64,000 nt of DNA from an uncultured Gammaproteobacteria bacterium (GTDB lineage Bacteria > Pseudomonadota > Gammaproteobacteria > JAURND01), in the NCBI GenBank assembly GCA_963714975.1, contig CAVQQD010000003.1, positions 782,624 through 846,623 of the forward strand, in the 5' to 3' direction. Made by a program: the position numbers and the translations under genes. Below the pieces are notes generated by a model. That model saw only the letters and a program-made list of their open reading frames with translations, ran no database searches and had not been told where the DNA came from. Shown here one piece after another: positions 705 through 54,238 of the stretch; the stretch's first letter is position 1, and each line of letters starts with the position of its first letter.

Positions 705-810
705 CCCATTCCATCCTGAGGATGGCCGGTCCGCTTGTCCTGAGGAGCGAAGCGTCTCGAAAGGACGGCTGCTTCCTTCGTGACGCTTCGCTCCTCAGGA
801 CGAACGGGGA
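705..810. repeat. Imperfect palindromic (hairpin-forming) element, family 1
   Basis: The 20-bp arms GTCCTGAGGAGCGAAGCGTC (737-756) and GACGCTTCGCTCCTCAGGAC (782-801) are exact reverse complements. The 28-nt core GACGCTTCGCTCCTCAGGACGAA(C/T)GGGG (782-809) recurs inside the NRPS gene at 21404-21431. The element is intergenic between convergent-oriented neighbours. Confidence 0.7.
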
Positions 811-4777: not shown

Positions 4778-6790
4778 TTAGGTTGACGAAGACGAATAGG
4801 TTGTGGAGCTCGAGGAGGCGACCTGTGACAAGCTACTCTGTCCTTGAATATCACGCAAGAGTTGCATCATATTTTGCAACGCTTGCTGCTGTGCTGATGT
4901 GGGTGGTTTAGCAGGGTCCGCTTTTTTATATTCTGCTAATTGTTTCAAAAAATCACGCCGCAGGTCAGCGCGGGCAGGAGCATTGGGTGGGCAAGCGGTA
5001 TTGAGTAGTTCTTGGGCTTGTTTCAATAATGCACCGGTGGTGAGTAAGGGAGTCTTCATGCTCGGAGGAGATTTTTGCTCTGATTGCGGGGCAGAAAAAA
5101 ATTGTGGATAGGCAGTAATAGGTGGTTGGGATTTTTGGCTGGAGCTTGGTGCAGAAGCAAGCCAAGGCCTAGGTGTTGTGAACGAAAATAATCCTCGCTT
5201 AGCAGTGGATCCCACAGATTTATTGTCTTTAGGCTGAGACGATGGAAGAGAGGGTTGTTTTAATTGAGTAGTTGATGATTGAGGTAAATTCAATGGAGCT
5301 GTACGAGAGGGTAGAGTAGCACGACGTGCTTTTGCGGAGGAAGATACCTTGGATTCTGTTTGAGGCGATACTGTTTCACTCACTTGAACTGATAATGATA
5401 AATCCTCCGAATTGACCTTAGTTTGTGCAATGTTTTGCGTTTCTTGAACCAGGGTAGTGCTGGGTTGTGCTCTTTTTTCTTCAGGAGGTTCCACCAAAAC
5501 CTCTTTCACATTCGCCCCATAGAGCTCCAATAAGCGTTTACTCTGGCTGTCCATACGGCAGCCCTGTAACTCTACCCCTTGAACCAGCAAGGGCATGGCC
5601 GAATGGGATGGCATTCCCACAAAACGCACTGAAGTATCTTTTCGAGAGACGGCCCAAAGACTGATAGTGCCTGCCCCATCACCGAAGGCTAAGCCGTCTT
5701 CATCAAGACGCAAGGAATTGAGAATATCTTCGTCGTTCTGAGCCAAAAAATGAGCGGTAGTCACGGCGACCGTGAAAATAGCTTGATGCCAAGAGATCAC
5801 CCCTAAACTGCGACCACTCTTGATCTCCCACAGACGCACGGTTTTATCATCGCTACCGGAGGCCAGCCAGTGGCCCTTGAGGTTGAAGGCGACACTTTTC
5901 ACCGCCATCGAATGCCCTCTGAGCTCACTCATCGGCTTTTGAGTGGTGGTATCCCACAGGCGCACGGTTTTATCAGAGCTTCCCGAGGCTAGCCAGCGGC
6001 CATCTGGGCTGAAAGCGACACTATGCACTACATTCGAATGCCCAGTGAGCAAACCTGCGGGCTTTTGGGTGGTCACGTCCCACAACCGCACGGTGTTATT
6101 CCAACTGCCACCGGACGCTAACCAGCTGCCATTGGGGCTGAAGGCGACACTGTTCACCGAATATGAATGTCCGGTGAGCTTGTCCAGGAATTTTTGTGTG
6201 GTGACTTCCCACAGGCGCACGGTATTGTCCTCGCTGCCGGAGGCGAGCCAACGTCCGTCTGGACTAAAGGCGACACTTTCCACTTTTCCTGAATGCCCGG
6301 TGAGCGGTTGGCCTACTAGCTTTTGCTCAGTCACGTCCCACAGACGTACGGTATGATCAAGACTGCCGGAGGCGAGCCAACGGCCATCAAAGCTGAAGGC
6401 AACACTCAGCACGAAACTCGAATGCCCTTTGAGTTGGCCTATTGGCTTTTGCTCAGTCACGTCCCACAGGCGCACGGTGTTATCCCAACTGCCGGAGGCG
6501 AGCCAACGTCCGTCTGGACTGAAGGCGACACTACTCACGTCTTTTGAGTGCCCGGTGAGTGGCTGGCCGATGGGTTGGCCGGTGCTATTGTCTTGGAACA
6601 TAATCGTGTTTCCTTGCGAGACCGCCAACCAGGGTTTGCTGGAGTGCCAGGCAATAGCCGAAGCTGCTTCAGCCAACGGCAACCAGGGTCGCTCCCCCCA
6701 GTCGGCTTCCCGTAGATCAGCGCCCTTAAGATTAGCGTGATAGAGGATGGTGTGGCGCAGGGTAGCGCCGCGCAGGTTGGCCTCTCGCAA
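4778..6790 (-). CDS. Pentapeptide-repeat + WD40-repeat protein with a Ser/Pro/Gln-rich C-terminal tail
   Basis: The N-terminus carries pentapeptide repeats (ANLRGATLRHTILYHANLKGADLREAD). About 8 WD40 units follow (GHS..V.SVAFSPDGRWLASGS.D.TVRLWDV) and are near-identical at the DNA level. The C-terminus is a low-complexity S/P/Q tail. Local GC is well above the window baseline. Confidence 0.8.
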   Translation of the reverse strand: MREANLRGATLRHTILYHANLKGADLREADWGERPWLPLAEAASAIAWHSSKPWLAVSQGNTIMFQDNSTGQPIGQPLTGHSKDVSSVAFSPDGRWLASGSWDNTVRLWDVTEQKPIGQLKGHSSFVLSVAFSFDGRWLASGSLDHTVRLWDVTEQKLVGQPLTGHSGKVESVAFSPDGRWLASGSEDNTVRLWEVTTQKFLDKLTGHSYSVNSVAFSPNGSWLASGGSWNNTVRLWDVTTQKPAGLLTGHSNVVHSVAFSPDGRWLASGSSDKTVRLWDTTTQKPMSELRGHSMAVKSVAFNLKGHWLASGSDDKTVRLWEIKSGRSLGVISWHQAIFTVAVTTAHFLAQNDEDILNSLRLDEDGLAFGDGAGTISLWAVSRKDTSVRFVGMPSHSAMPLLVQGVELQGCRMDSQSKRLLELYGANVKEVLVEPPEEKRAQPSTTLVQETQNIAQTKVNSEDLSLSVQVSETVSPQTESKVSSSAKARRATLPSRTAPLNLPQSSTTQLKQPSLPSSQPKDNKSVGSTAKRGLFSFTTPRPWLASAPSSSQKSQPPITAYPQFFSAPQSEQKSPPSMKTPLLTTGALLKQAQELLNTACPPNAPARADLRRDFLKQLAEYKKADPAKPPTSAQQQALQNMMQLLRDIQGQSSLSQVASSSSTTYSSSST

Positions 6791-6941
6791 ATCAGTATGC
6801 GCCAGAAACCCGTAGCTAAAATCTGCACCCGGGAGTTGCGCGCCACGCCAATCGCGCCCGCTAAAGTTGATCTGGCAGGCATTGAGTACCGTCGCGGCAT
6901 TAGCAGAGGCAGTCGCTAAGCTGGTCTCTTTCTTGCTGCGA

Positions 6942-20366: not shown

Positions 20367-23300
20367 ATGGCCCCTAATATTTTTACTTGTTTTATCATTG
20401 GAGAGGATAATCTCCATTTGGAATGTGCCAAAATTATCCAACAACAAGGACAGCAAATAATAGGCATTATCTCTGCGTATGAAGCCGCAGAACTATGGGC
20501 TTTGCAACAGGGAATTCCCCACTATGCCTCGCTAGCAGCCGCCCAAGAAGCACTCAACAAGACTCCTTTTGATTATTTATTTAGCATCGTCAATGCGCAG
20601 ATTTTGCCTGCCGCGATACTCAATTTGCCTCGGCAATTGGCGATTAATTTTCATGATGCGCCTTTACCACGGTATGCTGGAGTTCACGCCACTTCCTGGG
20701 CGATCTTAAATCAAGAAAAGACGCATGGCATTACTTGGCATGTGGCTACTGAAACCGTCGATGCCGGTGATATTTTACAGCAAGTGATGGTGCCAATTAC
20801 TGAAGATGAAACTGCGTTGAGTTTAAACCTCAAATGCTATGAAGCCGCGCTGCAAAGCTTTCCTGAGTTAGTGAAATCTTTGGCGAATCACAGTTATCAA
20901 CGCCAACCCCAAGATCTAAGACAACGTACCTATTTTGGTCTCCATCAAAAACCTGCTGGCGATGGCTGGATTGATTGGAATGCCAGTGCCGAAGATATTG
21001 AGCGATTATTTCGGGCTACTCAATTTGGCTCCTATCCTAATCGGTTTACTTGTCCTAAATTTAAGTTGTCATTCCAGCCGGACGAACCGTCATCCCAGCA
21101 AGGAAGCTGGGAAGATGAATTTATTATCACTCAATTAGAACTATTACCCGAGCCATCGACTGTAGCTCCTGGAACCATTGTTGCTACTACAGAGGAGTAT
21201 TGGCGCGTTGCGACCGCTACTTGCGACATCGCTATTCGGCAGATTTGTACTTTAGAAGGTGATGCAGTCATTCTGGAAGGAGAAGGGGTGCTAGATCAGG
21301 CTCACCCCTCATCCGGCCTTCGGCCACCTTCTCCCACAAGGGGAGAAGGAGTGAAGTTGAGGGCTTATGAGGCTCGAGCGGAAATCTCCCCTTTGTCCTT
21401 CGAGACGCTTCGCTCCTCAGGACGAATGGGGGGCAGGGGGGATTTAAACAGCGGAGGAGGCGATGAAGCCTACTGGGTTTCCCAATGGCAATCCATAGAG
21501 CCTGCCAAAATTCCCTTCCTGAATTTTAATCACCTCGAAAATAAATCCTCATTCCTTCTCCCCCTGTGGGAGAAGGTGGCCGAAGGCCGGATGAGGGGAG
21601 AACCCTCAGAATTCACCCCTCATCCGCCAGCCTACCCTGAGCCTGTCGAAGGGGCACCTTCTCCCACAAGGGGAGAAGAAGTAATGCCGGGGATGTATGA
21701 GAGGAGGTATTATCACCTACAACAATGGACCCTCCCCACCTCCTTACAAAAATTATTACACCAACATTACCCTACTCACGATTTCAACACCCTTCTTTTA
21801 GCCCTCTGGCTCGTCTATTTTTATCGTCTCGGTAATCAACCCAACGTAGGAGTGCTGCTGCAATTACCTGATCAAAATGCTTCACATCCTAGTGATCTGG
21901 ATCCTGGCATCCATGCCAGGACGAGTTTAGAACTACCGTATTTCACTGTCTTACAAGACGGATTACACTTCGGCCAAGTAGTGTCCCAATTACAAGATGA
22001 GTTACAGGCCATGCAACAAAAAGGCAGTTATTTACGCGATATATTTTATCGTTATCCAATTTTAACCGAAGTCAAACACGCCGTGTTTACTGCAGTGGTG
22101 ATTGGAGAAATCAATCAGCTACAAAAATCTCGTGCTGCTTTGGTGTTGGGGATATCTGCCAAAGATTATAGTTTATCTTGGCACGTCGATCAAAATTGCT
22201 TAACACAAGAACCCTACTTAAAAACCATCCTAGATCAAATGCCCGGCCATTTAGAAACCTTGCTAACCGCCATTACCACGCAACCAGAAACTCCCATTGC
22301 CGATTTAGTGCTACTTACACCCCAAGAACAGCAGCAAATCTTAATTGATTGGAATCAAACTGAAACAGACTATCCACGCGATAAAACTATTCCGCAATTA
22401 TTTGAAGAACAGGTTCAAAAACATCCCAATAAAATCGCCGTTTGTTTTGAAAATCAATCGCTCACCTATCGTGAGCTTAATCAACAAGCCAATCAACTTG
22501 CGCATTACTTAAGTCAACAAGGGGTGGTAGCTGAAACTTTAGTCGCAATTTGCATGGAACGCAGCATCGAAATGATTATTGGGATTTTGGGGATTTTAAA
22601 GGCGGGGGGTGCTTATGTGCCGATTGATCCTGAGTATCCAAGAGCGAGAATAAAGTTCATTTTCGAGGATTGTCGGGCTATGTTTGTGCTTACTCAATCT
22701 CGTCTTGCTAAGAAAATACATGCTATTACAGATGGCGCTGTTATTACGGTTGATAAAATTAAAAATATCAAAATTCATAACAAAGAATCTATTAGCTTAA
22801 ATTTTGACTCTTCTCAATTAGCTTATGTCATTTACACCTCAGGTACTACGGGAAAACCCAAAGGGGTTCTTATTAAACATCAGGCGGTGGTGAATACGGT
22901 CTTGGCAAAGTTACGAAAATTTGCCATTAATCACTCTGATAGAATCTTAAATTTTTCCACCCTTAGTTTTGATGCTTCTGTGTGGGAGATATTTCCCTGT
23001 CTATTTGCAGGAGCAACCTTATATCTGGCCAGGAAAGAAAATTTGTTACCAGGCAGTAAACTTACGCATTTTCTAGAAAAAAATAAAATTACTATCGCTA
23101 CTTTAGTGCCTTCTATACTAGCGATAACTCCACCACCTTCTACCTCCCATTTGCGGATAATTATTTCAGCGGGTGAATCATGCTCGAAGGCGGTAGTAAA
23201 GCAATGGGAAAACGTCGCTATTTTTGTTAATGCCTATGGGCCCACTGAATTTACAATTTGTGCTGCTATGGCAATCGTAGGTAAAGATGCAAATAAAATA

Positions 23301-26300
23301 ACTATTGGTAGACCGATTGCAAATACTAAAATTTTTATTTTAGACGATAAAATGCAGCTTTTACCCGTAGGCATCACCGGAGAGTTGTACGTCACAGGAC
23401 ACGGTTTGGCAAAAGGATATTTAAATCGAGATGCACTGACTAAAAGTAAGTTTATACCTTGGGCTTTGGAGCATGGAACCAAAGAGGTATCTCAAATAGT
23501 GTATAAAACGGGTGACTTGGCTCGTTGGTTGCCTGATGGTAACCTAGAATATATGGGCCGAGTGGATGAACAAATTAAAATTTTAGGCTGTCGGGCAGAG
23601 TTAGGTGAACTGGAAGAAATAGCAGTAACGTATCCTAATATTTTACAAGCTGCGGCTTGTCTAGATACAACAGCCGAAAAAAACCAAATTAACCTCTTTT
23701 TTGTCAATAAAAGTGACCGCAATGCAATTGATATTGCAAAGTTTAATCGCTTTCTAAAAAAACAGGTCCCTCGCTACACTGTTCCCTCTAAAATAATTGA
23801 AGTAGCTCGATTTCCAAGAACCGTTAATGGGAAAATTGATAAAAATTTATTGCTCAAAAAAATGTTTTTCATTAAGCAACCAGTTATAGAACCTCCGTCG
23901 ATCAAAGAAACATTACTCCTGGAAATTTTTCAAAAGATACTGAGAATTGATTCACTCCATTTAGAGGATGACTTCTTTCTCCTGGGGGGTGACTCCATTT
24001 TAGCAATGCATTTGGTTTCCAAAATCAATGCATTAGGCTTCCATTGTTCCGTGCGAGATGTATTTGAAGCATCCACCATAAAAAAATTGGTCATAAGGTT
24101 ACATAAAAAAAATCCTATAGAACCGATTGCGCTATTATCCAAAGATTTTTCCTTAACTCCAATTCAGCGTTGGTTTTTTGCGCAATCTTTCAGGCATCCG
24201 AAGCAGTTTGTTCAAATTTGCTGGCTAGAATTTCAAAAACCCATTAATTCAGAATTACTCGTTTGCTGCTTGCGGGAAATTATTGAATGGCATGAAATTT
24301 TTCGTCTTCGCTTTAAAAAGAAAGAAGGAATTTGGCAACAATATTATGCTGATAAGGTTCATGAATCATGCACCGATTTTCCAGTTATCGATAACTCTTC
24401 GCTGGTAATTCAGGATTTTGCGAATGAGTGGGTGATGAATGTGGCCCAGGATTTTAATTTTGAGACAGGCTATCTACTCAAGGTGGCCTTAGTACGCCAG
24501 CAAGGGAAAATTACCCATTTACTCTTAGCAGCACATCATTTGATTATGGATGGTGTATCTTGGCAAATTTTCTTTGATGATTTGCAGAGTTTATATGCAG
24601 GATCGGAAAAAGAGGGTAATAATTGGCAAAAATTTGCCAATAGTACTTCCTATCAACAGTGGGTTTACGCGCTAGAAAACTATATAGTTTCTTCGCAATT
24701 TAAAGCAGAGCAAAGCCATTGGCAAGGTGTTGATCCATTTACGTACATTCCTATTGATCACCACCAAGGGACTAATACGGAAAAATCTGCAGAATATGTC
24801 ACCGTAACATTAACCGAGGAAGAAACTCAGCGTTTATTGCGCACACTCGCTAAAACGCATCACTTGAATACCGATGAAATTCTAATTGCCTTGTTGGCAA
24901 AGTCCCTCATGCGCTGGTGCCAAACAGATTGCATCACGCTGGATATTGAACGCCACGGTCGGGAAGAATTAACAACGGAAATTAATTTAACAGGCACTTT
25001 AGGTTGGTTTACTAGTCTATTTCCTCTGCGGTTAAGCTGTAATAAAAATTTATCGCTACTCGAAATCATCCAATCGGTTCAGCAGCAATTACAAACGGTA
25101 CCACGTCATGGCATTAGTTATGGGTTACAGCATTATTTTTCTGGAGAATGGAAGCCAAAATCCAGTCTGCATGAGGGTGAAAATTTTACATCCCTGCACG
25201 CTGGATCCCGGCATCCTGCCGGGACGACGGGCCGCATCGCCTTTAATTACTGGGGTCAATTGGATCAAGCTTTTGCACAAAATTTCTTCACTTTGGGTGA
25301 GTTAAAATTGTTATCGCATCCCGAAAATATTCGTCCCTATTTGATCACTATTGATGCCGTAATCAAAAATAAGCAACTGCAACTAAGTTGGGCTTATAGT
25401 CGCAACTTCCATCGCCATGAAACCATCCAAGATCTCGCGCAGAATTTTGTGACTGATCTTCGAAATTTATTAACAAACACTCAGTTACAAAAACCAAAAA
25501 TTAGCTATGCTTTGACCGCGGTTCAACAAGGGTTACTCTTTGAACAATGTCGCTTTCCGCAAGCGCATTATTATCAAGCACAAGCGTGTTGGGAGCTGAA
25601 ATTATCTGGTCATTTTGATGCCAAATTATTACAAGCCGCATGTCGCTTTTTAGTGCAGCGTCATGATGTGTTGCGAACTCGTTTTGTGGTGTCAGGGTCG
25701 CAAGAGCCCACGCAATTCGTTGAAGAATCTATGGAAGTGCCTTGTGACATAATAGATCTACAGCAAGCGAAAGACCCTGAAGTGCAACTCACAAAGTTTC
25801 GTCTTGCCGACCAAGCTGCTTTGATTCATTGGCAAGCAACATCCCTTTTACGTGTTCAAATAGTGCTGCTGCCTGAAAATCGCTGTTACTTAATTTTGCA
25901 TTTTAATCACATGATTTTAGATGGCTGGAGTTTTTCGATTTTAGTCAAAGAATTTCACCAGTATTGTCAGGCGCAACAACAAGGATTAGCGCTGAATTTG
26001 CCCCCTACTTATCCTTTTGCTGATTATGTCCACTGGTTGCAGCACCAGAGTTGGAGTGCAAGTCAGGCGTTTTGGAAAAATTATTTGGCTAAATTTAATG
26101 AACCTGTCAATTTAAAGGTCTTGGGATTATTCGATGCGACGGCTGAAAAAACCGAGCTCTCGCGATGCGAGTTTGTGTCAACTCCCTTGTCTTCTGAATT
26201 AGGTCAAAAATTACAGCATTTTTGCCAAATGCAGCACATCAGCTTAAACACATTCTTTCAAGCGTTATGGGGTATTTTATTGCACCGCTATACCCAGACC

Positions 26301-29300
26301 CCTGATATTGTGACGGGCATGACCGTGTCGGGACGCAATATTGACTTGCCTCAGATCCAAGAGCGGGTAGGATTATTTATTAATAGTATTCCCTTGCGAC
26401 AACAGTTTGTCCCTGAGATAACAGTGCTGGCTCACTTGCAACAATTGCAAAAGACTATTACGTGCTTAATTCCGCACAGCACCTTCCCTCTTGCCGCCAT
26501 TCAAGCCTGCTCTGCACTATCTACTGCAGAACATCCCTTGTTTGATAGTCTAGTCGTCTTTGAAAATTATCCCCAAGCAACCCAAGAGGAAATCGAATTT
26601 TGGGATCCAACTCATTATGGTTTGACTTTGCTTATTACTCAAGGTTCCTGTTTGAAGCTGAAATTAGGCTATGATTGCCAACGTATTAATATAGAACGAG
26701 TCCAAAATTTACTGGAACATTTACAACATCTTTTGACCGTAGTCTTAGACAATCCACAGCAACAGATTGCCCGCTTACCTTTATTGACTACAGCAGAATA
26801 TCAAAAGCTATTTGCTCCAACCCAAACTGTAGTAGTGCTGGAAAATGTGGTAAGTTGTTTTCAAAAACAAGTAGTTAGTTCTCCTCACCATCCCGCGCTA
26901 GTTTGGGAGGGTCAGGTCTTGAGTTATCAAGACTTAGAAAATCAATCCAATCAATTGGCGCATTATTTAGCGACATTTCCGCATCATGGTGAAATGCCGA
27001 TTGGAGTATGCTTACCCCGTTGTCCCGAATTAGTCATCAGTTTGCTCGCGATCTGGAAGATGGGGGGAGCTTATTTGCCTTTAAATCCTGACTATCCGAC
27101 GGCTCGATTGCAAAGTATAGTAGATAGCCATCAAGTGAATCTTTTAATTTCCAAGAACATGATTCAAAAACTTACCGTGAACCATCCGATATTGTTGGAT
27201 CAAGTTCAAGCGAGTATCTGTCAACAACCTACTTATTATCCTCAGCATAGGATTCAACTGACGGATTTGGCGGCCATTTTAACCACTTCAGGCACCACCG
27301 GTAATCCTAAAAGCATTGCCCAAGAACATAAAACACTGGCGAATCTTGTGCATTGGCAACATCATGCATTTGCTTCCTCAGCAAAAAGACGAGTGACGCA
27401 ATTAGCAGCAATGAATTTTGATGTTTCATTACAAGAAATAACTTATGCGCTTGCTCAGGGCGATACGCTATATATTGTGCCAGAAACTATCAAACAATCC
27501 CTGGCGGAATTACTACGCTTTTTAGCGATCAATAAAATTCAACAAGCATTTTTAACCACTGCTTTATTGGAAGTTTTTTGTGAAGCGGCCTTATTTTTTA
27601 AACCCAACTTAAACTATCTGACTGAGATTTATGTAGCAGGAGAGGCATTAAAAATCTCTGGCCCGATCAAACAATTTTTTTCGCAAAATCCTCATATAGA
27701 CTTGGTGAATGAATATGGACCGACGGAAACTCATGTAGTAGCGACTCATCGATTATCAGTAGATACCATCGATAATTGGCCTTATTTACCGCCCATTGGA
27801 CGCGCAATTGACAACATCCGCTTATATGTCTTAGATGCCCAGTTACAAGCCTTACCGATCGGTATTCCGGGTGAGCTGTATATAGGTGGCGTCAATTTAG
27901 CGCGTGGTTATCTCCACAATGACAAGCTCACCCAAGAAAAATTTGTCCCCAATCCCTTTGATCCTATTGGTACCTCACGCTTATATCGTACGGGTGATCA
28001 GGTTCAGTGGAATGCGGCAGGGGAATTACTTTATTTAGGCCGTTACGATGATCAAGTAAAAATTCGCGGTTTTCGTATTGATCCGCAAGAAATTGAAGAA
28101 GCCTTACTAACACATAGCACCATTCAACAATGTTTGGTGACTGTGATTTCAGAGGAAAAATCAGCGCAATTAGTGTGCTATTTTGTCCCTTCTGATAAAA
28201 ATGAAGATGCAGAAAGTTTACGCCACCCATTGCGAAAAATATTACCTGACCATTTAATTCCGACCTATTTTATCAGGTTACAGTCCTTTCCCTTAACACG
28301 CGTTGGCAAAATTGATCGGCAGGCACTACCCCGACCTGAGCAAAGGAATGCCATAAGTAATACCACTTTTCGTCACGCTTATGAGCAACAACTCGCCGAG
28401 TTGTGGTCCGAAATTCTCCTTTGCACTTGCATAGATCGAGAGGTATCTTTTTGGGCTTTGGGTGGTGACTCGATTAAAGCTTTGCGCTTATTATTCTTAA
28501 TTGAACATCATTTGCAAGTGACGTTATCGCTGCAGGATTTTTTTACAGCACCTTCCATTGCCCAGATGAGTGATCGCATTCGTTTGACACAAGCGGATAA
28601 GGTATTGCAAAATCAGTGGCAAACCCTAGATTTTAAAGGATGCCACTTACCTTCTCCCTTAGTGCCATTACAAACCACAGGAGAAAAAACACCGCTGTTT
28701 ATTATCCACCCGATTGGTGGCACAGTTTTTGCCTTTTTAGATTTGGTCCGTTATCTGGGAAATGAGCGACCTATTTATGGAATTCAAGACCCCAACGTAG
28801 CTGACAATAACCATATTTCTTTTTTTAAAAATTTAGAAGAATTAGCAGCCTATTATGTTTATGCATTGCGCAGTGTCCAGCCTCAGGGTCCTTATTTTTT
28901 GTCGGGTTGGTCCTTTGGTGCTACTGTTGCCTTTGAAATGGCGCGACAAATTCTCGCTAGTCATGAAAAAGTAGAATTTTTAGGCTTACTCGATGGTTGG
29001 GCGGCGTATCCCAGCGAATTGCAAAATGAAAAAACATTCAAACAACTCATTCAAAAACAATGTGATGACTTATACCAACAATTTCATCTCAATCAACTAA
29101 AAAATCCTGATTTCTGGGTGGAACTACAATGGCAACGCAGTGATCTGCTTTGGCGATATAAGTTAAGACCTGTAAACACAGCTATAACTTTATTTAAAGC
29201 GAAAGAAGGGATACCAGGATTTCATGAGTCGTATGAGAAAGATTATGGCTGGCATCAATTTACCACCAAGCCAGTAGAAGTGTATGAGGTTCCGGGGGAT

Positions 29301-29387
29301 CATGCTTCGATGTTTCAGGAACCTTATGTGCAATCTTTAGCTGGTGCAGTATCTGCTGCATTAAATGAGGGACATATGGTTCATTAG
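20367..29387 (+). CDS. Nonribosomal peptide synthetase, two modules with an N-terminal formyltransferase (F) domain: F - partial C - A1 - T1 - C - C(NHxxxDG) - A2 - T2 - TE
   Basis: The N-terminus is Fmt-like (..HDAPLPRYAGVHATSWAILNQE..). A-domain cores appear twice (YTSGTTGKPKGV / TSGTTGNPKSI, NAYGPTE / NEYGPTE, GELYVTGHGLAKGYLNR / GELYIGGVNLARGYLHND, YKTGDLARW / YRTGDQVQW). T domains are LGGDSILA and LGGDSIKA. C domains carry HHLIMDGVSW and NHMILDGWSF. The TE has GWSFGATVAFE. Confidence 0.85.
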   Translation: MAPNIFTCFIIGEDNLHLECAKIIQQQGQQIIGIISAYEAAELWALQQGIPHYASLAAAQEALNKTPFDYLFSIVNAQILPAAILNLPRQLAINFHDAPLPRYAGVHATSWAILNQEKTHGITWHVATETVDAGDILQQVMVPITEDETALSLNLKCYEAALQSFPELVKSLANHSYQRQPQDLRQRTYFGLHQKPAGDGWIDWNASAEDIERLFRATQFGSYPNRFTCPKFKLSFQPDEPSSQQGSWEDEFIITQLELLPEPSTVAPGTIVATTEEYWRVATATCDIAIRQICTLEGDAVILEGEGVLDQAHPSSGLRPPSPTRGEGVKLRAYEARAEISPLSFETLRSSGRMGGRGDLNSGGGDEAYWVSQWQSIEPAKIPFLNFNHLENKSSFLLPLWEKVAEGRMRGEPSEFTPHPPAYPEPVEGAPSPTRGEEVMPGMYERRYYHLQQWTLPTSLQKLLHQHYPTHDFNTLLLALWLVYFYRLGNQPNVGVLLQLPDQNASHPSDLDPGIHARTSLELPYFTVLQDGLHFGQVVSQLQDELQAMQQKGSYLRDIFYRYPILTEVKHAVFTAVVIGEINQLQKSRAALVLGISAKDYSLSWHVDQNCLTQEPYLKTILDQMPGHLETLLTAITTQPETPIADLVLLTPQEQQQILIDWNQTETDYPRDKTIPQLFEEQVQKHPNKIAVCFENQSLTYRELNQQANQLAHYLSQQGVVAETLVAICMERSIEMIIGILGILKAGGAYVPIDPEYPRARIKFIFEDCRAMFVLTQSRLAKKIHAITDGAVITVDKIKNIKIHNKESISLNFDSSQLAYVIYTSGTTGKPKGVLIKHQAVVNTVLAKLRKFAINHSDRILNFSTLSFDASVWEIFPCLFAGATLYLARKENLLPGSKLTHFLEKNKITIATLVPSILAITPPPSTSHLRIIISAGESCSKAVVKQWENVAIFVNAYGPTEFTICAAMAIVGKDANKITIGRPIANTKIFILDDKMQLLPVGITGELYVTGHGLAKGYLNRDALTKSKFIPWALEHGTKEVSQIVYKTGDLARWLPDGNLEYMGRVDEQIKILGCRAELGELEEIAVTYPNILQAAACLDTTAEKNQINLFFVNKSDRNAIDIAKFNRFLKKQVPRYTVPSKIIEVARFPRTVNGKIDKNLLLKKMFFIKQPVIEPPSIKETLLLEIFQKILRIDSLHLEDDFFLLGGDSILAMHLVSKINALGFHCSVRDVFEASTIKKLVIRLHKKNPIEPIALLSKDFSLTPIQRWFFAQSFRHPKQFVQICWLEFQKPINSELLVCCLREIIEWHEIFRLRFKKKEGIWQQYYADKVHESCTDFPVIDNSSLVIQDFANEWVMNVAQDFNFETGYLLKVALVRQQGKITHLLLAAHHLIMDGVSWQIFFDDLQSLYAGSEKEGNNWQKFANSTSYQQWVYALENYIVSSQFKAEQSHWQGVDPFTYIPIDHHQGTNTEKSAEYVTVTLTEEETQRLLRTLAKTHHLNTDEILIALLAKSLMRWCQTDCITLDIERHGREELTTEINLTGTLGWFTSLFPLRLSCNKNLSLLEIIQSVQQQLQTVPRHGISYGLQHYFSGEWKPKSSLHEGENFTSLHAGSRHPAGTTGRIAFNYWGQLDQAFAQNFFTLGELKLLSHPENIRPYLITIDAVIKNKQLQLSWAYSRNFHRHETIQDLAQNFVTDLRNLLTNTQLQKPKISYALTAVQQGLLFEQCRFPQAHYYQAQACWELKLSGHFDAKLLQAACRFLVQRHDVLRTRFVVSGSQEPTQFVEESMEVPCDIIDLQQAKDPEVQLTKFRLADQAALIHWQATSLLRVQIVLLPENRCYLILHFNHMILDGWSFSILVKEFHQYCQAQQQGLALNLPPTYPFADYVHWLQHQSWSASQAFWKNYLAKFNEPVNLKVLGLFDATAEKTELSRCEFVSTPLSSELGQKLQHFCQMQHISLNTFFQALWGILLHRYTQTPDIVTGMTVSGRNIDLPQIQERVGLFINSIPLRQQFVPEITVLAHLQQLQKTITCLIPHSTFPLAAIQACSALSTAEHPLFDSLVVFENYPQATQEEIEFWDPTHYGLTLLITQGSCLKLKLGYDCQRINIERVQNLLEHLQHLLTVVLDNPQQQIARLPLLTTAEYQKLFAPTQTVVVLENVVSCFQKQVVSSPHHPALVWEGQVLSYQDLENQSNQLAHYLATFPHHGEMPIGVCLPRCPELVISLLAIWKMGGAYLPLNPDYPTARLQSIVDSHQVNLLISKNMIQKLTVNHPILLDQVQASICQQPTYYPQHRIQLTDLAAILTTSGTTGNPKSIAQEHKTLANLVHWQHHAFASSAKRRVTQLAAMNFDVSLQEITYALAQGDTLYIVPETIKQSLAELLRFLAINKIQQAFLTTALLEVFCEAALFFKPNLNYLTEIYVAGEALKISGPIKQFFSQNPHIDLVNEYGPTETHVVATHRLSVDTIDNWPYLPPIGRAIDNIRLYVLDAQLQALPIGIPGELYIGGVNLARGYLHNDKLTQEKFVPNPFDPIGTSRLYRTGDQVQWNAAGELLYLGRYDDQVKIRGFRIDPQEIEEALLTHSTIQQCLVTVISEEKSAQLVCYFVPSDKNEDAESLRHPLRKILPDHLIPTYFIRLQSFPLTRVGKIDRQALPRPEQRNAISNTTFRHAYEQQLAELWSEILLCTCIDREVSFWALGGDSIKALRLLFLIEHHLQVTLSLQDFFTAPSIAQMSDRIRLTQADKVLQNQWQTLDFKGCHLPSPLVPLQTTGEKTPLFIIHPIGGTVFAFLDLVRYLGNERPIYGIQDPNVADNNHISFFKNLEELAAYYVYALRSVQPQGPYFLSGWSFGATVAFEMARQILASHEKVEFLGLLDGWAAYPSELQNEKTFKQLIQKQCDDLYQQFHLNQLKNPDFWVELQWQRSDLLWRYKLRPVNTAITLFKAKEGIPGFHESYEKDYGWHQFTTKPVEVYEVPGDHASMFQEPYVQSLAGAVSAALNEGHMVH
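21296..21700. repeat. Cluster of palindromic repeat elements inserted in-frame within the NRPS coding sequence (F-domain/C-domain linker)
   Basis: Three copies of a ~48-bp unit CACCCCTCATCCGGCCTTCGGCCACCTTCTCCCACAAGGGGAGAAGG lie at 21303-21350 and 21614-21686 (direct) and 21551-21598 (inverted). The family-1 core GACGCTTCGCTCCTCAGGACGAATGGGG is at 21404-21431. GGGGGGCAGGGGGGATTT is at 21427-21444. The ORF stays open and translates this stretch as low-complexity peptide (..PSPTRGEGV.. appears twice). Confidence 0.6.
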
Positions 29388-31530: not shown

Positions 31531-31543
31531 CCGCTTTCTCTCT

Positions 31544-31583
31544 AAATCCCCCCTTACCCCCCTTTTTCAAAGGGGGGGATTTA
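31544..31583. repeat. Family-2 palindromic element (AAATCCCCCC...GGGGGGGATTT) 14 nt downstream of the HK stop
   Basis: AAATCCCCCCTTACCCCCCTTTTTCAAAGGGGGGGATTT. The same architecture recurs at 57189-57268 and 60648-60795. Confidence 0.55.
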
Positions 31584-31861
31584 CGCTTGGGCGGTGGCGA
31601 GAAGATTTTAGTGTGGAGGTCACCATGGATGTCTTACGATACAATGAATTAAATATTTCCGCGGTAAAAAAGCAGTACGATACTGTCGTGGCTTTACTCC
31701 AACAAAATAATTTTGCAGCGAGTGGGGTCAAGCAATTCGTAGGAACACCGTTTTACTTAGTGCCTTTGGATTCAACCCAGGGCTTGTTGTTTCGAGTAGT
31801 TTCCCATTTTCCTTGCTGCTCAGGGTAGAGTAGGGGTGCATGGTCTTCCTGACCTTTTCTT

Positions 31862-32938
31862 TTAATCAGCCAAATTGCTTATCCATCCCCTTTGAGTCAA
31901 GATCTTAGCTGCTAAGGTGATCTGGCGCTCGGTAAATTGTTTTTTGCGTTTATTCCAGGCATAGGTTTGTTTCACTACATCGTCCAAGGTATGTGCAGAT
32001 TCTTGTTGCACTATCCAATGTACCGTAGATAATAACTCTAATCCAAATGATGATTCGAATCCTTCAACCAATTTTACAACCTGATCAAAACGTGTCCGAG
32101 TTTCGGCATGATTTTCAAGAAAAGCGCTAGCTGCTTCAACTGCACCCTGCCGCAACCTGAGCTGCTTGTTTGGATTATCACCACCGTCGACGTATCCTGA
32201 GATCAAATGTCCTTCAATGTCATTTAGTACATGACGCAAATTTTCAGCGTAAGGGCCATAGAGTCCTTTTACATAACGAAGTCGCAGTGGTTCACCAGCT
32301 ACCTGCATAAAATACATTAATTTTTGAACCTCTAGCAGCGTAACAAAAGGATCAAGTAAAGCGTTTAGATAGCGATGCATCAGTTGAACCAAAGTAGCTC
32401 GTCCCGCTGTCATTTTAGGAGCTTTTCGACTATAGGTTGTTTTTTCTCTGACAAACTCTGGTTCATAGATGATAATTTGGACATTTTTTAAGGGTTTTAA
32501 TGCCGCTATGATGAGTGGCTTAATTTGTGCCCATTTTAGTCCACCCAATCCGCTACCAAGGGGAGGGATTGCAATCGAGTGAATATTGTATTTACTGATG
32601 ACTGTGGCTAACGACTTAAGACCAGCTTCAATGTCTTCAATTCGGCTCTTATCTTTCCAATGTCGCTTAGTGGGGAAGTTGATGATATAGCGGGGAGTTC
32701 CTGGGTAAGTGGTTTCATACACAAACATGTGGCCTGGCTGCACTTCTGCGTGCTTACAGGCAGTGACATAAGCTTTGAAATTATCTGGAAATGTATTTTT
32801 GAATTGCAAAGCAATGCCACGACCCATGATGCCGACACAATTCACTGTGTTCACAATGGCTTCTGCATTTTCTTGCAAAATATCGCCTGTTTTGTACTCA
32901 ATCACTCTCATCCACCTCGTTAATATTAGTAGTACCAC
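31862..32938 (-). CDS. darG: DarG-like antitoxin: N-terminal macro domain (ADP-ribose hydrolase) plus C-terminal DarT-interaction domain
   Basis: The macrodomain motifs AIVNTVNCVGIMGRGIALQF and AIPPLGSGLGG are present. At 358 aa it matches DarG size, and it lies immediately downstream of and overlapping the darT-like ORF. Confidence 0.65.
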   Translation of the reverse strand: MVLLILTRWMRVIEYKTGDILQENAEAIVNTVNCVGIMGRGIALQFKNTFPDNFKAYVTACKHAEVQPGHMFVYETTYPGTPRYIINFPTKRHWKDKSRIEDIEAGLKSLATVISKYNIHSIAIPPLGSGLGGLKWAQIKPLIIAALKPLKNVQIIIYEPEFVREKTTYSRKAPKMTAGRATLVQLMHRYLNALLDPFVTLLEVQKLMYFMQVAGEPLRLRYVKGLYGPYAENLRHVLNDIEGHLISGYVDGGDNPNKQLRLRQGAVEAASAFLENHAETRTRFDQVVKLVEGFESSFGLELLSTVHWIVQQESAHTLDDVVKQTYAWNKRKKQFTERQITLAAKILTQRGWISNLAD

Positions 32939-35186: not shown

Positions 35187-35447
35187 TTAAGGATAATAGG
35201 GATGATACGGATGTACGTACGGGTGGTAGTATGGATGATATGGGTAATAAGGATGATAGGGATGCACGTACGGATGGTAGTATGGATGATACGGATAATA
35301 GGGGTGATAGGGATGCACGTACGGATGATAGTACGGGTAATAAGAAACGGAAACACCAAGCTGGGCATAGCTCCCTAATGACGTAACCGCCAATAGACCA
35401 GCAGCCAAGGCCAAGGCAATCCGCTTTTTTAAAGAACCAAGTTTCAT
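35187..35447 (-). CDS. Secreted His/Tyr/Pro-rich tandem-repeat peptide
   Basis: Signal peptide MKLGSLKKRIALALAAGLLAVTSLGSYAQ, then YPYYHPYVHPYHPY repeated three times (42-nt DNA repeats), ending ..HPYYP. Followed by a terminator. Confidence 0.55.
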   Translation of the reverse strand: MKLGSLKKRIALALAAGLLAVTSLGSYAQLGVSVSYYPYYHPYVHPYHPYYPYHPYYHPYVHPYHPYYPYHPYYHPYVHPYHPYYP

Positions 35448-50929: not shown

Positions 50930-52159
50930 ATGAAGTTTATAGTGTTTTTTATTGGATTGAAGCAACTTGAAAATTATTCATTTAACCGAATCCAAGATAG
51001 AGAAAAATATCGTTTTGTTTGCATTATGTCAGAGAGCGATAGAAATCGTATGCCTGAAAATTATAGCGATTTATTCGATAAAATCTATAGCACACCAAGT
51101 CAAGAAAAATTACCGGATCTAGATTTGGAAGGAGTTATAGCAATTGTCAATCAAGAAATTCATGGAGCTACAGATTTGGAAAAAATATCTATCATTTGCC
51201 AAGATGAGACCCATGTTATGGTTGCTGCGCAATTAAGAACTTTATTTAACATTGGATCTGGCATAAGATTTAATGAAATCAAGCCCTTTAGAAATAAAAT
51301 GTTAATGAAGGAAATTTTAGCAAAATCGAACATCAGAGTCCCACGAAATTTCCCACTTAATCACACCAACGCTGATTTCAATAAAATAGTAGAAGTCTTG
51401 GGTCTGCCGTTTATTATGAAGCCTATAGATTCTTCTGGAAGTTTTGGCGTCAAAAAAATCCAGAATGCTGAAGAATTCACTAAGATGATCGAAGCAATTG
51501 ACAATTTAAATTTAGAATCCCATGAGGTGGAAGAATTTATTTCAGGAAAATTATTCCATTGGGATAGTGCAGCGAAAAATAAAAAATTGTTATTTATGGA
51601 GGGATCTTTATATAACCGTCCTCCCTTAGAATTTTTACAGGGAAATACCTTAGGAAGTATTCCACTGCTTCACGACGATCCTTTTCGCTCAAAGTTGGTA
51701 AAATTTGCTACTGAATCCCTGTTTGCTCTTGGTATGCCGGAAGGTCTCCAGCATATGGAAATTTTCCTGAATGACCAAGGTGACTACATATTTCTCGAGG
51801 TAGCTGCTAGAGCGCCTGGCTTCATTGCGTCTAAAGTTTATGCGAATACTTTTAATCAGAATCCACTAGACATTGATTTAAACATAGAGGCGGGAATAAA
51901 TTTTATAGAGACAGGGGATGTCTTAGGGCCATCATTTTGGGCAATTTTCCCCCTGGAGGATGGGGTAATTAAAGAATTAATTGAACCAGAACTGGAAAGT
52001 AATTATCAAATATCCTGGAGAGTCCAAGTGGGTCAAACGACACAAAAATCAAAATCTCTTTCGGACATAAGCGCTCTGGTTTTTGTTTCCAATCCAAATT
52101 ACGAGAAGTTAAAGAAAGATTTTCAAAAAATTTCAGTACATAAGGCAACTGTCTATTAA
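50930..52159 (+). CDS. ATP-grasp domain protein (carboxylate-amine ligase-like)
   Basis: The central block LGLPFIMKPIDSSGSFGVKKIQNAEEF...EEFISGKLFHWD fits the ATP-grasp fold. The start is uncertain; the alternative ATG at 51026 (MSESDRN) is possible. Confidence 0.6.
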   Translation: MKFIVFFIGLKQLENYSFNRIQDREKYRFVCIMSESDRNRMPENYSDLFDKIYSTPSQEKLPDLDLEGVIAIVNQEIHGATDLEKISIICQDETHVMVAAQLRTLFNIGSGIRFNEIKPFRNKMLMKEILAKSNIRVPRNFPLNHTNADFNKIVEVLGLPFIMKPIDSSGSFGVKKIQNAEEFTKMIEAIDNLNLESHEVEEFISGKLFHWDSAAKNKKLLFMEGSLYNRPPLEFLQGNTLGSIPLLHDDPFRSKLVKFATESLFALGMPEGLQHMEIFLNDQGDYIFLEVAARAPGFIASKVYANTFNQNPLDIDLNIEAGINFIETGDVLGPSFWAIFPLEDGVIKELIEPELESNYQISWRVQVGQTTQKSKSLSDISALVFVSNPNYEKLKKDFQKISVHKATVY

Positions 52160-52563
52160 GGTTTATTTTGGCTTTTTAAAAAATCAGGTGGAGGCCATCC
52201 TGTTTCAGAAAAATAATCAAAATAGTTTATGGTAATTTCTTCCCCTGGGTTAATATCTTTAATTGCCGTAGCGATAATTATTTTGTTTTTCTTTTGGCAA
52301 CGAGTATTTGGGTTTAAGCTATGATTTAAATAACGTGCGCCACCAATTTGAAAAATATTTAATTGGTTATATTTTCTATCATAAGCTCCGTAGAGGTCCT
52401 TTTTTTCAAACTCACCAGCTAGACTTTTATCAATTACAGCAGTGCCAAATACAAAGCCTGCAGGTATGAATTTTTTGCTGAATAAACCCATACCATGAGT
52501 CTTTGATTTTTTAACCTCCACCACTCCGTTGCTTAAAATAAACGAATTTTCTCTAAAACTCAT
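52156..52563 (-). CDS. Small SET-domain protein (putative protein-lysine methyltransferase)
   Basis: GMGLFSKKFIPAGFVFG, ARYLNHSLNPNTRC and ITINYF match SET motifs (GxG, NHS, post-SET-like Y). The ORF track starts at a TTG (52608). The first ATG, at 52563, gives MSFRENSF.... Confidence 0.7.
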   Translation of the reverse strand: MSFRENSFILSNGVVEVKKSKTHGMGLFSKKFIPAGFVFGTAVIDKSLAGEFEKKDLYGAYDRKYNQLNIFQIGGARYLNHSLNPNTRCQKKNKIIIATAIKDINPGEEITINYFDYFSETGWPPPDFLKSQNKP

Positions 52564-52598
52564 AATAATTACCTCATTATAAGTATAGTAGAATTCTT

Positions 52599-52748
52599 GT
52601 GAGCTCAAACTGAACTGAAGTCCCGCCGCCCGCCTACGGGGTCCTGCCGCGCGGACAACCCGCCGTGCTCGGCTACGAGCACGGCGGGTTGTCCGCGCGG
52701 CAGGACCCCGTAGGCGGGCGGCGGGACTTCAGTTCAGTTTGAGCTCAC
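52599..52748. repeat. Perfect 150-bp palindrome (73-bp arms, 4-nt GCTA centre), GC-rich
   Basis: Left arm 52599-52671 GTGAGCTCAAACTGAACTGAAGTCCCGCCGCCCGCCTACGGGGTCCTGCCGCGCGGACAACCCGCCGTGCTCG. Right arm 52676-52748 is its exact reverse complement. The arms are ~70% GC in a ~35-40% GC neighbourhood. Confidence 0.9.
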
Positions 52749-54184: not shown

Positions 54185-54238
54185 ATCATCTTATAGCTAA
54201 TTTGGGTAATGCTAACAATTTTTGTGCTAAAATACCAC

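What the first reader, a model, noticed from the sequence alone, without database searches (positions are those of the whole stretch)
21296..21700. Palindromic repeat elements inserted in-frame inside an NRPS gene
A ~400-bp stretch of the 9-kb NRPS ORF consists of repeat units. Three copies of a 48-bp unit, CACCCCTCATCCGGCCTTCGGCCACCTTCTCCCACAAGGGGAGAAGG, are present, two direct and one inverted. Alongside them are the intergenic family-1 core (also at 782-809) and a GGGGGGATTT family-2 arm. The reading frame is never broken. The region is translated as low-complexity peptide in the linker between the formyltransferase domain and a partial C domain. This mirrors the in-frame insertion of Rickettsia palindromic elements (RPE) into protein genes, which has rarely been described in other obligate or facultative intracellular gammaproteobacteria. 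It may explain why the first C domain looks truncated.
Basis: seen in the sequence. Interest (0 to 1): 0.8.

Follow-up and report, generated by a model that had tools for sequence, protein, structure and literature searches.

The report
Palindromic repeats translated inside NRPS gene
Short GC-rich palindromic repeat elements that normally sit between genes have landed at least four times, always in frame, in one 400-base stretch of a large peptide-synthetase gene; it is a clean new example of a phenomenon already known from Rickettsia and other bacteria.

Summary
Window 21276-21686, inside an intact 3006-aa NRPS ORF, is a mosaic of three unrelated palindromic repeat families. The first is a 47-nt unit present as a singlet plus an inverted doublet. 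The second is a family-2 unit, and the third is a family-1 unit nested in the family-2 hairpin loop.

A close ortholog (P0001, 88% identity over aligned positions) lacks three of these segments, which measure 93, 27 and 159 nt. Forty more distant homologs lack all of them. These are therefore insertions, each a multiple of three and free of stop codons.

AlphaFold gives low confidence for the family-2/family-1 segment and for the doublet segment, around a well-folded formyltransferase domain and half-condensation domain. The singlet segment scores intermediate.

The 47-nt unit belongs to a REP-like family that is abundant and intergenic in Alphaproteobacteria and in a few low-GC gammaproteobacterial MAGs. 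Its central hairpin is variable and covaries, and its usual form is an inverted doublet.

The idea that the insertions truncated the C domain does not: every homolog has the same half-C domain. Intragenic REPs are already documented in many species (Di Nocera 2013), so this is a new member of a known kind. How the elements are mobilised remains unknown.

The parts
20367..29387 (+). Intact NRPS ORF of 3006 aa. Domain order: formyltransferase, half-condensation, A, PCP, then C, A, PCP, TE.
   Evidence: the Pfam match to Condensation in the N-terminal region covers profile positions 250-456 only
21276..21368 (+). Insertion 1: 93 nt, aa 304-334 (EGEGVLDQAHPSSGLRPPSPTRGEGVKLRAY). Absent from ortholog P0001.
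   Evidence: alignment A1; coordinates
21303..21349 (+). Copy 1 of the 47-nt REP-like unit (singlet): CACCCCTCATCCG, then the GCCTTCGGC hairpin, then CACCTTCTCCC-ACAA-GGGGAGAAGG.
   Evidence: 100% identical over 47 nt to L113
21369..21464 (+). Family-2-derived segment (EARAEISPL...GGRGDLNSGGGD). Shared with P0001 (EIPPLKKGGRGDLK) and absent from distant homologs. It stands in place of the native linker of about 35 aa.
   Evidence: (I10)
21396..21428 (+). Insertion 2: a family-1 singlet (TCCTTCGAGACGCTTCGCTCCTCAGGACGAAT; peptide SFETLRSSGRM) nested in the hairpin loop of the family-2 unit. Net gain of 27 nt relative to P0001.
   Evidence: (D18, I6)
21465..21527 (+). Native sequence between the insertions: the first helix of the C-like domain (EAYWVSQWQSIEPAKIPFLNF). 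Conserved in all homologs.
   Evidence: helix 365-376; mean pLDDT 92 for residues 371-380
21528..21686 (+). Insertion 3: 159 nt, aa 388-440. Absent from P0001 and contains one inverted doublet of the 47-nt unit.
   Evidence: blastn 70-73% identity over 135-147 nt to canonical doublets in L058, L089 and L043
21553..21600 (-). Copy 2 of the unit (left half of the doublet).
21614..21680 (+). Copy 3 of the unit (right half of the doublet). It has a different 29-nt central module, GCCAGCCTACCCTGAGCCTGTCGAAGGGG.
731..807 (.). Intergenic inverted doublet of family 1 (31-nt arms). RNA fold -60 kcal/mol, z = -8.8.
   Evidence: (I4)
31537..31585 (.). Family-2 unit 7 nt downstream of the histidine-kinase stop codon (intergenic).
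   Evidence: (D13)
57181..57266 (+). Family-2 inverted doublet lying in frame inside the Lhr-like helicase ORF 54209..58375 (peptide QAEIPPTPLCQRGDHEIPPFGKGGLGGILDL).
   Evidence: (I5)
60640..60800 (.). Intergenic cluster of degenerate family-2 units.
   Evidence: (D13, D14)

Best explanation
Non-autonomous, GC-rich palindromic repeat elements of the REP/REPIN or small-MITE type have inserted at least four separate times into one short, structurally permissive part of the NRPS initiation module.

Proposed order of events:
1. A family-2 unit entered the formyltransferase/half-C linker. This happened before the split from the P0001 lineage.
2. A family-1 unit then landed in the family-2 hairpin loop.
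3. A 47-nt-unit singlet landed 18 nt upstream.
4. A complete inverted doublet of the same unit landed about 100 nt downstream, after the first helix of the C-like domain.

The gene is under purifying selection, so only insertions whose length is a multiple of three and which lack stop codons in the reading frame used have survived. They are read through and translated as Pro/Gly/Ser/Arg/Glu-rich loops projecting from an otherwise intact F-C* fold. The most likely effect is neutral or slightly deleterious 'decoration', not a new function.

Clustering at one spot is best explained in two ways. New copies may prefer to land in or next to existing hairpins. This is also one of the few places in the gene where extra residues are tolerated.

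Shown: membership in repeat families, insertion relative to orthologs, an open frame, and low model confidence for two of the three inserted segments. Inferred: the mobilising enzyme, the target preference, translation itself, and neutrality.
For: - Insertion polarity. P0001 (88% identity over aligned positions, 76% by BLASTP over the full query) lacks the 93-, 27- and 159-nt segments, and 40 more distant homologs lack all repeat-derived sequence.
- Foreign character. The two repeat blocks reach 65% and 67% GC in 60-nt windows, against 42.7% for the window as a whole.
- A wide family. It is 100% identical over 47 nt to L113.
- Canonical form. 29 of 32 unit pairs in other genomes show the same '(-) then (+)' doublet as copies 2+3.
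- Normally extragenic. No CDS lies under the match in 26 of 26 annotated top hits in the plasmid collection, and the unit lies between long open frames in the low-GC gammaproteobacterial MAG loci that could be assessed.
- Maintained hairpin. There are 82 distinct central modules among 141 units, and 84% form a hairpin of at least 4 bp. Within one length class, 4 of 7 pairs change on both sides and 98% of helix cells remain paired.
- Frame. All three lineage-specific length differences are multiples of three. The doublet is stop-free in only one of six frames, and that is the frame used.
- Structure. The AF2 model has pLDDT 83 and pTM 0.82. Segments with pLDDT below 50 (340-364 and 395-442) coincide with the family-2/family-1 segment and the doublet segment. 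The singlet segment scores 62-77.
- Gene still functional-looking. The 9-kb ORF is intact, and formyltransferase residues N94 and H96 are invariant and D132 nearly so.
- Nesting. The P0001 peptide EIPPLKKGGRGDLK reads as an intact family-2 unit. The window has the family-1 unit in place of its loop.
- Precedent. In-frame REP/MITE inserts, often dimers or clusters encoding 20-82 aa, are documented (PMC3733652, PMC2229807).
Against: - No transposase or RAYT was found in the window, so mobility is inferred.
- Copy number in the source genome is unknown. In 64 kb the 47-nt unit occurs only at this one locus.
- Exact junctions and target-site duplications could not be read, because the DNA of the P0001 genome was not retrievable.
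- Translation of the inserts is untested.
- P0001 itself is only 608 aa although it lies on a 1.24-Mb contig. The orthologous gene may be broken there, which leaves room for relaxed selection in this gene family.
- The family-2 segment is not a clean addition. It occupies a linker of similar length in homologs, so deletion or replacement must also have occurred.
Confidence: 0.8

Rival explanations
1. The repeat-bearing segments are ancestral to this NRPS lineage and were precisely deleted in the P0001 lineage. On this view the window shows retention, not insertion.
For: Only one close ortholog is available. Palindromes are known deletion hot spots (general knowledge; discussed in PMC3733652).
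Against: Forty more distant homologs from many phyla lack all of the segments. The segments belong to repeat families that occur in unrelated intergenic contexts in other genomes. Three independent, precise, in-frame deletions would be needed.
Confidence: 0.05
2. Assembly or binning artefact: repeat-containing reads from co-occurring high-GC Alphaproteobacteria were chimerically joined into this low-GC contig.
For: The unit is 100% identical over 47 nt to copies in unrelated, high-GC genomes. The source appears to be an uncultured-organism assembly: the closest named relatives of its TrpS are MAGs, and its own TrpS carries no source name.
Against: There are three separate inserts, each a multiple of three and stop-free, with conserved native coding sequence between them. 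Families 1 and 2 recur elsewhere in the same window in a low-GC context. P0001, from an independent genome, already carries the family-2 segment at the same site.
Confidence: 0.03
3. The inserts are functional. One version is that they act as an extended flexible linker that changes F-C*-A domain dynamics. The other is that they act at the mRNA level: the region folds to -218 kcal/mol, and copy 1 pairs with copy 2 across 194 nt, which could pause ribosomes or recruit RNases to tune expression of the 9-kb gene.
For: Very stable predicted RNA structure: z = -9.6 for 21280-21700 and -79 kcal/mol (z = -7.9) for the doublet. In this lineage the F-C* linker is made entirely of repeat-derived sequence.
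Against: Such inserts occur in many unrelated proteins, which argues against specific function (PMC3733652). The close ortholog does without three of them. Most of the inserted sequence gets low or only intermediate confidence in the model. No conservation data are available.
Confidence: 0.1
4. The gene is under relaxed selection and is decaying, so it simply accumulates mobile-element insertions. The open frame is a transient accident.
For: Four insertion events lie in 400 nt of one gene. The ortholog P0001 is called as only 608 aa on a 1.24-Mb contig. NRPS clusters are often dispensable.
Against: A 9021-nt ORF without a stop is very unlikely to persist without selection in a 43% GC genome. 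All three indels preserve the frame, which has a probability of about 1/27 by chance. The catalytic and core motifs of all domains give strong Pfam matches.
Confidence: 0.08

Closest known systems
Rickettsia palindromic elements (RPE; Ogata et al. 2000; Claverie & Ogata 2003) and Wolbachia protein-coding palindromes
   Same: Short palindromic repeats found both between genes and, in frame, inside conserved protein genes. They are translated as extra loops that leave the fold intact, and they occur in a host-associated bacterium.
   Different: The sequence families differ and are GC-rich here. The host is gammaproteobacterial and Legionellales-like in gene content. The basic units are shorter (47 nt singlet, about 130 nt doublet). 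Several unrelated families are nested at one site. The 47-nt unit is shared across bacterial classes rather than being genus-specific.
GTAG/CGTC-tagged REPs and REPINs (Bertels & Rainey 2011; Di Nocera et al. 2013, PMC3733652)
   Same: Units are imperfect palindromes, here 47 nt. They occur as singlets and, mainly, as inverted dimers, are mostly intergenic and are shared between species. Intragenic units, dimers and clusters encoding 20-82 aa are documented, including in helicase and repair genes. CGTC REPs are mainly alphaproteobacterial, also occur in Coxiella, and lack a dedicated transposase.
   Different: The conserved core of the 47-nt unit has no GTAG or CGTC tag. The unit has two hairpins, one constant and one variable, plus a conserved single-stranded 5' motif (CCCCTCATCCG). 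No RAYT could be linked to it.
Coxiella burnetii QMITE1/QMITE2 (Wachter et al. 2018, PMC5896051)
   Same: Small palindromic elements in an intracellular gammaproteobacterium. The small form of QMITE2 is a REP that is also found in Bradyrhizobium and Rhodopseudomonas, which is the same alpha/gamma sharing seen here.
   Different: QMITEs were reported to overlap only the 3' ends of functional genes by a few bases, not to sit in frame in the middle of a domain. Sequence relatedness to the window's families could not be tested.
BIMEs and other mosaic REP clusters (E. coli; Neisseria dRS3/Correia regions)
   Same: Different palindromic unit types are interleaved or nested at one locus, and new units land in or beside old ones.
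   Different: Those mosaics are extragenic. Here the mosaic is translated.

Membership tests
RPE-like 'protein-coding palindromes' | A palindromic repeat, also present elsewhere in the genome, lies inside a conserved protein gene without breaking the frame | tested here: met
   The ORF is intact, and families 1 and 2 recur in intergenic DNA of the window.
RPE-like 'protein-coding palindromes' | Orthologs without the element show that it is an insertion | tested here: met
   P0001 lacks 93, 27 and 159 nt. Distant homologs lack all repeat-derived segments.
RPE-like 'protein-coding palindromes' | The insert maps to a surface loop and leaves the fold intact | tested here: met
   In the AF2 model, pLDDT is below 50 at 340-364 and 395-442, while the flanking domains score above 90. 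This is a prediction only.
RPE-like 'protein-coding palindromes' | Sequence belongs to one of the Rickettsia RPE families | not tested
   No RPE sequences were available. The host and base composition differ, so membership in the RPE sequence families is not claimed.
RPE-like 'protein-coding palindromes' | The insert is transcribed and translated | not testable with these tools
   This needs transcriptome or proteome data.
REP / REPIN | Short imperfect palindrome forming a stable hairpin | tested here: met
REP / REPIN | Inverted dimers are the predominant arrangement | tested here: met
   29 of 32 pairs in other genomes are '(-) then (+)' doublets with 98-215 nt between the two core starts. 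Copies 2+3 in the window have the same form.
REP / REPIN | Conserved GTAG or CGTC tag at one end | tested here: inconclusive
   By inspection: the 47-nt unit has neither tag, family 1 contains CGTC within its stem, and family 2 shows GTAG in only one of the copies read in the window.
REP / REPIN | Many, mostly extragenic, copies per genome | tested here: inconclusive
   The unit is extragenic and multi-copy in other genomes. In this genome only 64 kb is visible, with three copies, all at one intragenic locus.
REP / REPIN | A cognate RAYT (Y1 transposase) flanked by the repeats | not testable with these tools
   No such gene was found among the window ORFs scanned. The rest of the genome is not available.
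MITE | Terminal inverted repeats | tested here: met
   The doublet ends in CCTTCTCCCC...GGGGAGAAG(A/G) and folds end-to-end at -79 kcal/mol.
MITE | Target-site duplication | tested here: inconclusive
   A possible TAAT occurs at both ends of insertion 3, but without ortholog DNA the junctions cannot be fixed.
MITE | A related autonomous IS with matching ends | not tested
   None was seen in the window.
Formylation-initiated NRPS | An Fmt-like F domain with the catalytic Asn/His/Asp, followed by A-PCP and downstream modules | tested here: met
   Pfam; N94 and H96 invariant and D132 nearly invariant; fold matches to Fmt and ArnA.

The most novel reading that the evidence does not exclude
The 47-nt unit, and the similarly built family-1 unit, would belong to a REP-like element class that moves between bacterial classes and phyla. 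Copies were found in Alphaproteobacteria, in MAGs labelled Planctomycetales, and in Legionellales-like Gammaproteobacteria. Transfer might occur through phages or through exchange inside amoebae. The elements would target pre-existing DNA hairpins and, in this lineage, would be actively replacing inter-domain linkers of large enzymes (the NRPS and the Lhr helicase). That would make 'protein-coding palindromes' a general source of new linker sequence outside the Rickettsiales.
Probability: 0.15. Interest if true: 0.6.

Novelty: new member of a known kind. Interest (0 to 1): 0.4.

Why it matters
This is a well-documented natural case showing that a megasynthase can absorb about 90 extra, repeat-encoded residues at and just after a domain boundary while its ORF stays intact and its predicted fold is kept. 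That is useful for NRPS engineers choosing permissive insertion or linker sites.

It also extends the known range of translated palindromic repeats to an uncultured, apparently host-associated gammaproteobacterium.

Finally, the unit's near-identity to alphaproteobacterial copies echoes the Coxiella QMITE2/Bradyrhizobium link. It gives a concrete handle on how such elements spread, and on the still unknown enzyme that moves REPs that have no transposase of their own.

Tried and rejected
Dead ends:
- Ortholog and source DNA: the look-up of encoding contigs returned 'not on record' for P0001 and for P0121, the window's own TrpS. The listing of cluster members gave no names. Exact junctions and target-site duplications therefore stay open.
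- Curated RNA families: Rfam at gathering threshold finds only a tRNA. A permissive scan of 21200-21750 gives only sub-threshold, generic long-hairpin (miRNA precursor) matches.
- Literature by sequence: no paper in the library contains the unit's core strings.
- Named alphaproteobacterial repeats: Br-REP1 and Br-REP2 of Bradyrhizobium have different sequences. The text of the Caulobacter CIR paper was not held.
- Close Lhr ortholog, to prove the second in-frame case: the best hits are only 46-53% identical.
- Fold search of the model returned only formyltransferase matches.

Interpretations considered and rejected:
- Caulobacter CIR elements: they are described as having stops in all six frames and as never intragenic (PMC2229807), which does not fit.
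- Intein or translational bypass, as with the yeast mitochondrial 'byps': all inserts are multiples of three and stop-free, and Pfam gives no intein or Hint hit. Plain read-through is the simpler reading.
- Insertion as the cause of the truncated C domain: rejected by Pfam coverage in homologs.
- Counting intragenic copies in the high-GC alphaproteobacterial loci by open frames: abandoned because stop-free stretches there are mostly spurious.
Full report
**1. What is in the sequence**

Window 20367..29387 (+) is a single ORF of 3006 aa. Pfam gives a formyltransferase N and C domain (aa 56-293), two adenylation domains, two PCPs, condensation domains and a C-terminal thioesterase.

Between aa 304 and 440 the DNA changes character. 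GC rises from about 0.44 to 0.55-0.58 in 200-nt windows, and reaches 0.65 and 0.67 in 60-nt windows, against 0.427 for the whole window. The stretch is built from repeats:

- Unit copy 1: 21303-21349 (+).
- Unit copy 2: 21553-21600 (-). Its 56-nt arm is 93% complementary to that of copy 1.
- Unit copy 3: 21614-21680 (+). It has the same flanks but a different 29-nt central module.
- Family-1 unit: 21396-21428. Its 20-mer is identical to both arms of an intergenic inverted doublet at 731-807.
- Family-2 unit: about 21380-21447, wrapped around the family-1 unit.

The hairpin core has no expected chance matches in shuffled sequence. An HMM built from 144 units of other genomes finds only these three copies in the 64 kb. 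Two small corrections apply: the unit is 47 nt, not 48, and copies 2 and 3 form one doublet.

**2. Are they insertions?**

A search of the N-terminal 680 aa found one close ortholog, P0001, and about 170 more distant homologs from many phyla. P0001 is 88% identical over aligned positions and 76% by BLASTP over the full query. Many of the listed homologs carry a Condensation-type hit between the formyltransferase and adenylation domains.

In the alignments (A1 and A2) P0001 lacks three segments of the window protein:

| Segment | aa | nt | Length |
|---|---|---|---|
| EGEGVLDQAHPSSGLRPPSPTRGEGVKLRAY | 304-334 | 21276-21368 | 93 nt |
| SFETLRSSGRM (P0001 has KK) | 344-354 | 21396-21428 | net +27 nt |
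| NHLENKSS...PTRGEEVM | 388-440 | 21528-21686 | 159 nt |

At the same site P0001 reads EIPPLKKGGRGDLK. This is the translation of an intact family-2 unit (AAATCCCCCCTTTGnnAAAGGGGGGnnnGGGGGGATTT; compare). The window gene therefore has a family-1 unit sitting in the loop of a family-2 hairpin.

The distant homologs have none of this. Between the last strand of the formyltransferase domain and the conserved 'HExFWV' helix they carry an unrelated linker of about 35 aa.

The most parsimonious history has four events: family 2 first (shared with P0001), then family 1 into its loop, then the 47-nt singlet, then the doublet. All three lineage-specific length differences are multiples of three. The doublet is free of stop codons in only one of its six frames, and that is the frame used.

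**3. What the 47-nt unit is**

- Most hits are Alphaproteobacteria of 58-71% GC: Mesorhizobium, Bradyrhizobium, Brevundimonas, Caulobacter, Devosia, Phenylobacterium and others.
- A few are low-GC (37-47%) contigs labelled Gammaproteobacteria: L002, L039, L044, L051 and L060.
- Two are contigs of a MAG labelled Planctomycetales. One of these, L113, is 100% identical to copy 1 over 47 nt.

The units share one grammar: ACCCCTCATCCG, then a variable GC-rich hairpin, then CACCTTCTCCC-ACAA-GGGGAGAAGG.

The variable hairpin shows signs of being maintained:

- It has 82 distinct sequences among 141 units, and 84% form at least 4 bp.
- Its loops are TTC, TGC or TAC. On the other strand these read as GNA triloops; the link to stable single-stranded-DNA hairpins is from my own knowledge.
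- Within the 22-nt length class, 4 of 7 pairs change on both sides while 98% of helix cells stay paired. None of 500 shuffles reached the observed covariation score.

The usual arrangement is an inverted doublet, '(-) then (+)', with 98-215 nt between the two core starts. This holds for 29 of 32 pairs. It is the arrangement of copies 2+3, which align over 135-147 nt at 70-73% identity to doublets in L058, L089 and L043.

In annotated rhizobial replicons the unit lies under no CDS in 26 of 26 annotated top hits. In the low-GC gammaproteobacterial loci that could be assessed it lies between long open frames, for example between convergent frames in L002. The core also occurs in 66 IMG/VR stretches, all of high GC.

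Family 1 follows the same design: CCTGAGGAG, a hairpin, then CGTCTCGAAGGA. Relatives with longer central hairpins occur in Bradyrhizobium loci L053 and L077.

No Rfam family matches, and no paper in the library contains the unit's sequence.

**4. Consequences for the protein and the mRNA**

An AlphaFold2 model of the first 680 aa, built on a 42-sequence alignment, has mean pLDDT 83 and pTM 0.82.

- The formyltransferase domain and the C-like domain are confident.
- Segments with pLDDT below 50 are 340-364 (family 2 plus family 1) and 395-442 (the doublet), plus three short loops.
- Insertion 1 scores 62-77.
- The native helix between the inserts is confident (mean pLDDT 92 for residues 371-380).

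Formyltransferase residues N94 and H96 are invariant and D132 nearly so. The fold matches Fmt and ArnA structures.

Pfam matches only the C-terminal part of the Condensation profile in each homolog tested: from position 194 in P0001, 189 in P0010 and 154 in P0003. In the window protein the match covers 250-456. The 'truncated' C domain is therefore a family trait, not a result of the insertions. The doublet merely interrupts the Pfam match near its start.

At the RNA level the doublet folds to -79 kcal/mol (z = -7.9). The whole stretch 21280-21700 folds to -218 kcal/mol (z = -9.6), with copy 1 pairing with copy 2. This could matter for translation or stability but is untested.

**5. Organism and context**

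The window's TrpS is 100% identical to an unnamed database protein on an 866-kb contig. It is at most 76% identical to anything else, and the best named hits are 'MAG: Gammaproteobacteria bacterium'.

The window encodes WD40, ankyrin, Sel1, SET and avidin-family proteins and eukaryote-type kinases. This gene content is typical of amoeba-associated Legionellales-like bacteria (my inference).

**6. Comparison with what is known**

In-frame palindromic inserts were first described as RPEs in Rickettsia. They were later found in Wolbachia, Neisseria and enterobacteria (review: PMC2229807).

Di Nocera et al. (PMC3733652) catalogued intragenic GTAG and CGTC REPs in several species:

- Many lie in helicase and repair genes.
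- RPE-4 and RPE-6 are CGTC REPs.
- CGTC REPs are mainly alphaproteobacterial, coexist with GTAG REPs in Coxiella and Bradyrhizobium, and lack a dedicated transposase.

Wachter et al. (PMC5896051) found that the small form of Coxiella QMITE2 is a REP also present in Bradyrhizobium and Rhodopseudomonas.

The present case works like these. I do not file the 47-nt unit in the GTAG or CGTC families because its conserved core has no such tag, and no RAYT or other transposase could be linked to it.

**7. Verdict**

This is a genuine, well-supported example of translated REP-like insertions. Four events involving three families have hit one permissive region of an NRPS. It is a new member of a known kind.

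The points that go somewhat beyond the textbook case are:

- the nesting of unrelated families at one coding site;
- the complete replacement of the F-C* linker by repeat-derived sequence;
- a probable second case in the Lhr helicase;
- the cross-class near-identity of the unit.

The mobilisation mechanism, genome-wide copy number and expression remain open.

Noticed in passing
window 57181-57266 (inside ORF 54209..58375, +): A family-2 inverted doublet (RNA fold -72 kcal/mol, z = -8.8) lies in frame inside an Lhr-type helicase gene and encodes QAEIPPTPLCQRGDHEIPPFGKGGLGGILDL. Homologs (38-48% identical in the alignment) have an unrelated variable linker of nearly the same length at that point. 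The alignment to the solved M. smegmatis Lhr (7LHL) resumes immediately after the doublet. No close ortholog was found, so insertion or replacement is likely but not proven.
   Followed up: partly
window 52586-52761: A 176-nt near-perfect GC-rich palindrome: 86-nt arms, 95% complementary, 4-nt loop, up to 78% GC, -1.16 kcal/mol per nt. It overlaps the 5' end of the SET-domain ORF 52156..52608 (-). It is unrelated in sequence to families 1 and 2 and to the 47-nt unit.
   Followed up: no
window 4426-4564 and 4892-5030: Inverted repeat with 139-nt arms, 86% complementary and 327 nt apart. One arm lies inside the 3' part of the WD40-repeat ORF 4778..6790 (-). This may be a larger MITE or IS remnant that supplies the C-terminus of that protein.
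   Followed up: no
window 1332-1394 and 46781-46843: A fourth short repeat family (63 nt, 73% identical). One copy lies at the 3' end of rimK. The other lies between the ABC-transporter stop codon and the likely true start of lpxK.
   Followed up: no
window 3426-16605, 35682-39041, 48611-49093, 52156-52608, 60864-63170: Dense set of eukaryote-like genes: Sel1, WD40, two paralogous Ser/Thr/Tyr kinase-ankyrin proteins with long internal DNA repeats, an 1119-aa ankyrin protein, an avidin-family protein, a SET-domain protein and another kinase. This suggests a host-associated (amoeba-type) lifestyle.
   Followed up: partly
window 21078-21119 (aa 238-251 of the NRPS): A 14-aa loop (PDEPSSQQGSWEDE) in the C-terminal subdomain of the formyltransferase domain. 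It is shared with P0001 in near-identical form, absent from all other homologs, and has low model confidence. No repeat was detected there, so this is a separate, older lineage-specific insertion.
   Followed up: no
window 31862-32938 (-): Strong match to the DarG antitoxin (NF048014, E = 5.7e-138), directly downstream of the NRPS-kinase pair. A DarT partner was not looked for.
   Followed up: no
window 29365-29387: The NRPS stop codon overlaps by 23 nt the start of a 721-aa hybrid histidine kinase/response regulator ORF. A second sensor kinase lies upstream on the other strand (17254..18651). This hints at coupled regulation of the cluster.
   Followed up: no
L113 2053-2099; L058 1051-1178: Contigs of a MAG labelled Planctomycetales (69% GC) carry the unit and a canonical doublet. 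One copy is 100% identical over 47 nt to copy 1 in the 43% GC window. This reflects either very recent transfer, strong constraint on the element, or mis-binned alphaproteobacterial contigs.
   Followed up: no
window 35188-35340: Three tandem copies of a 51-nt unit (82-100% identical), just downstream of the large ankyrin-repeat gene.
   Followed up: no
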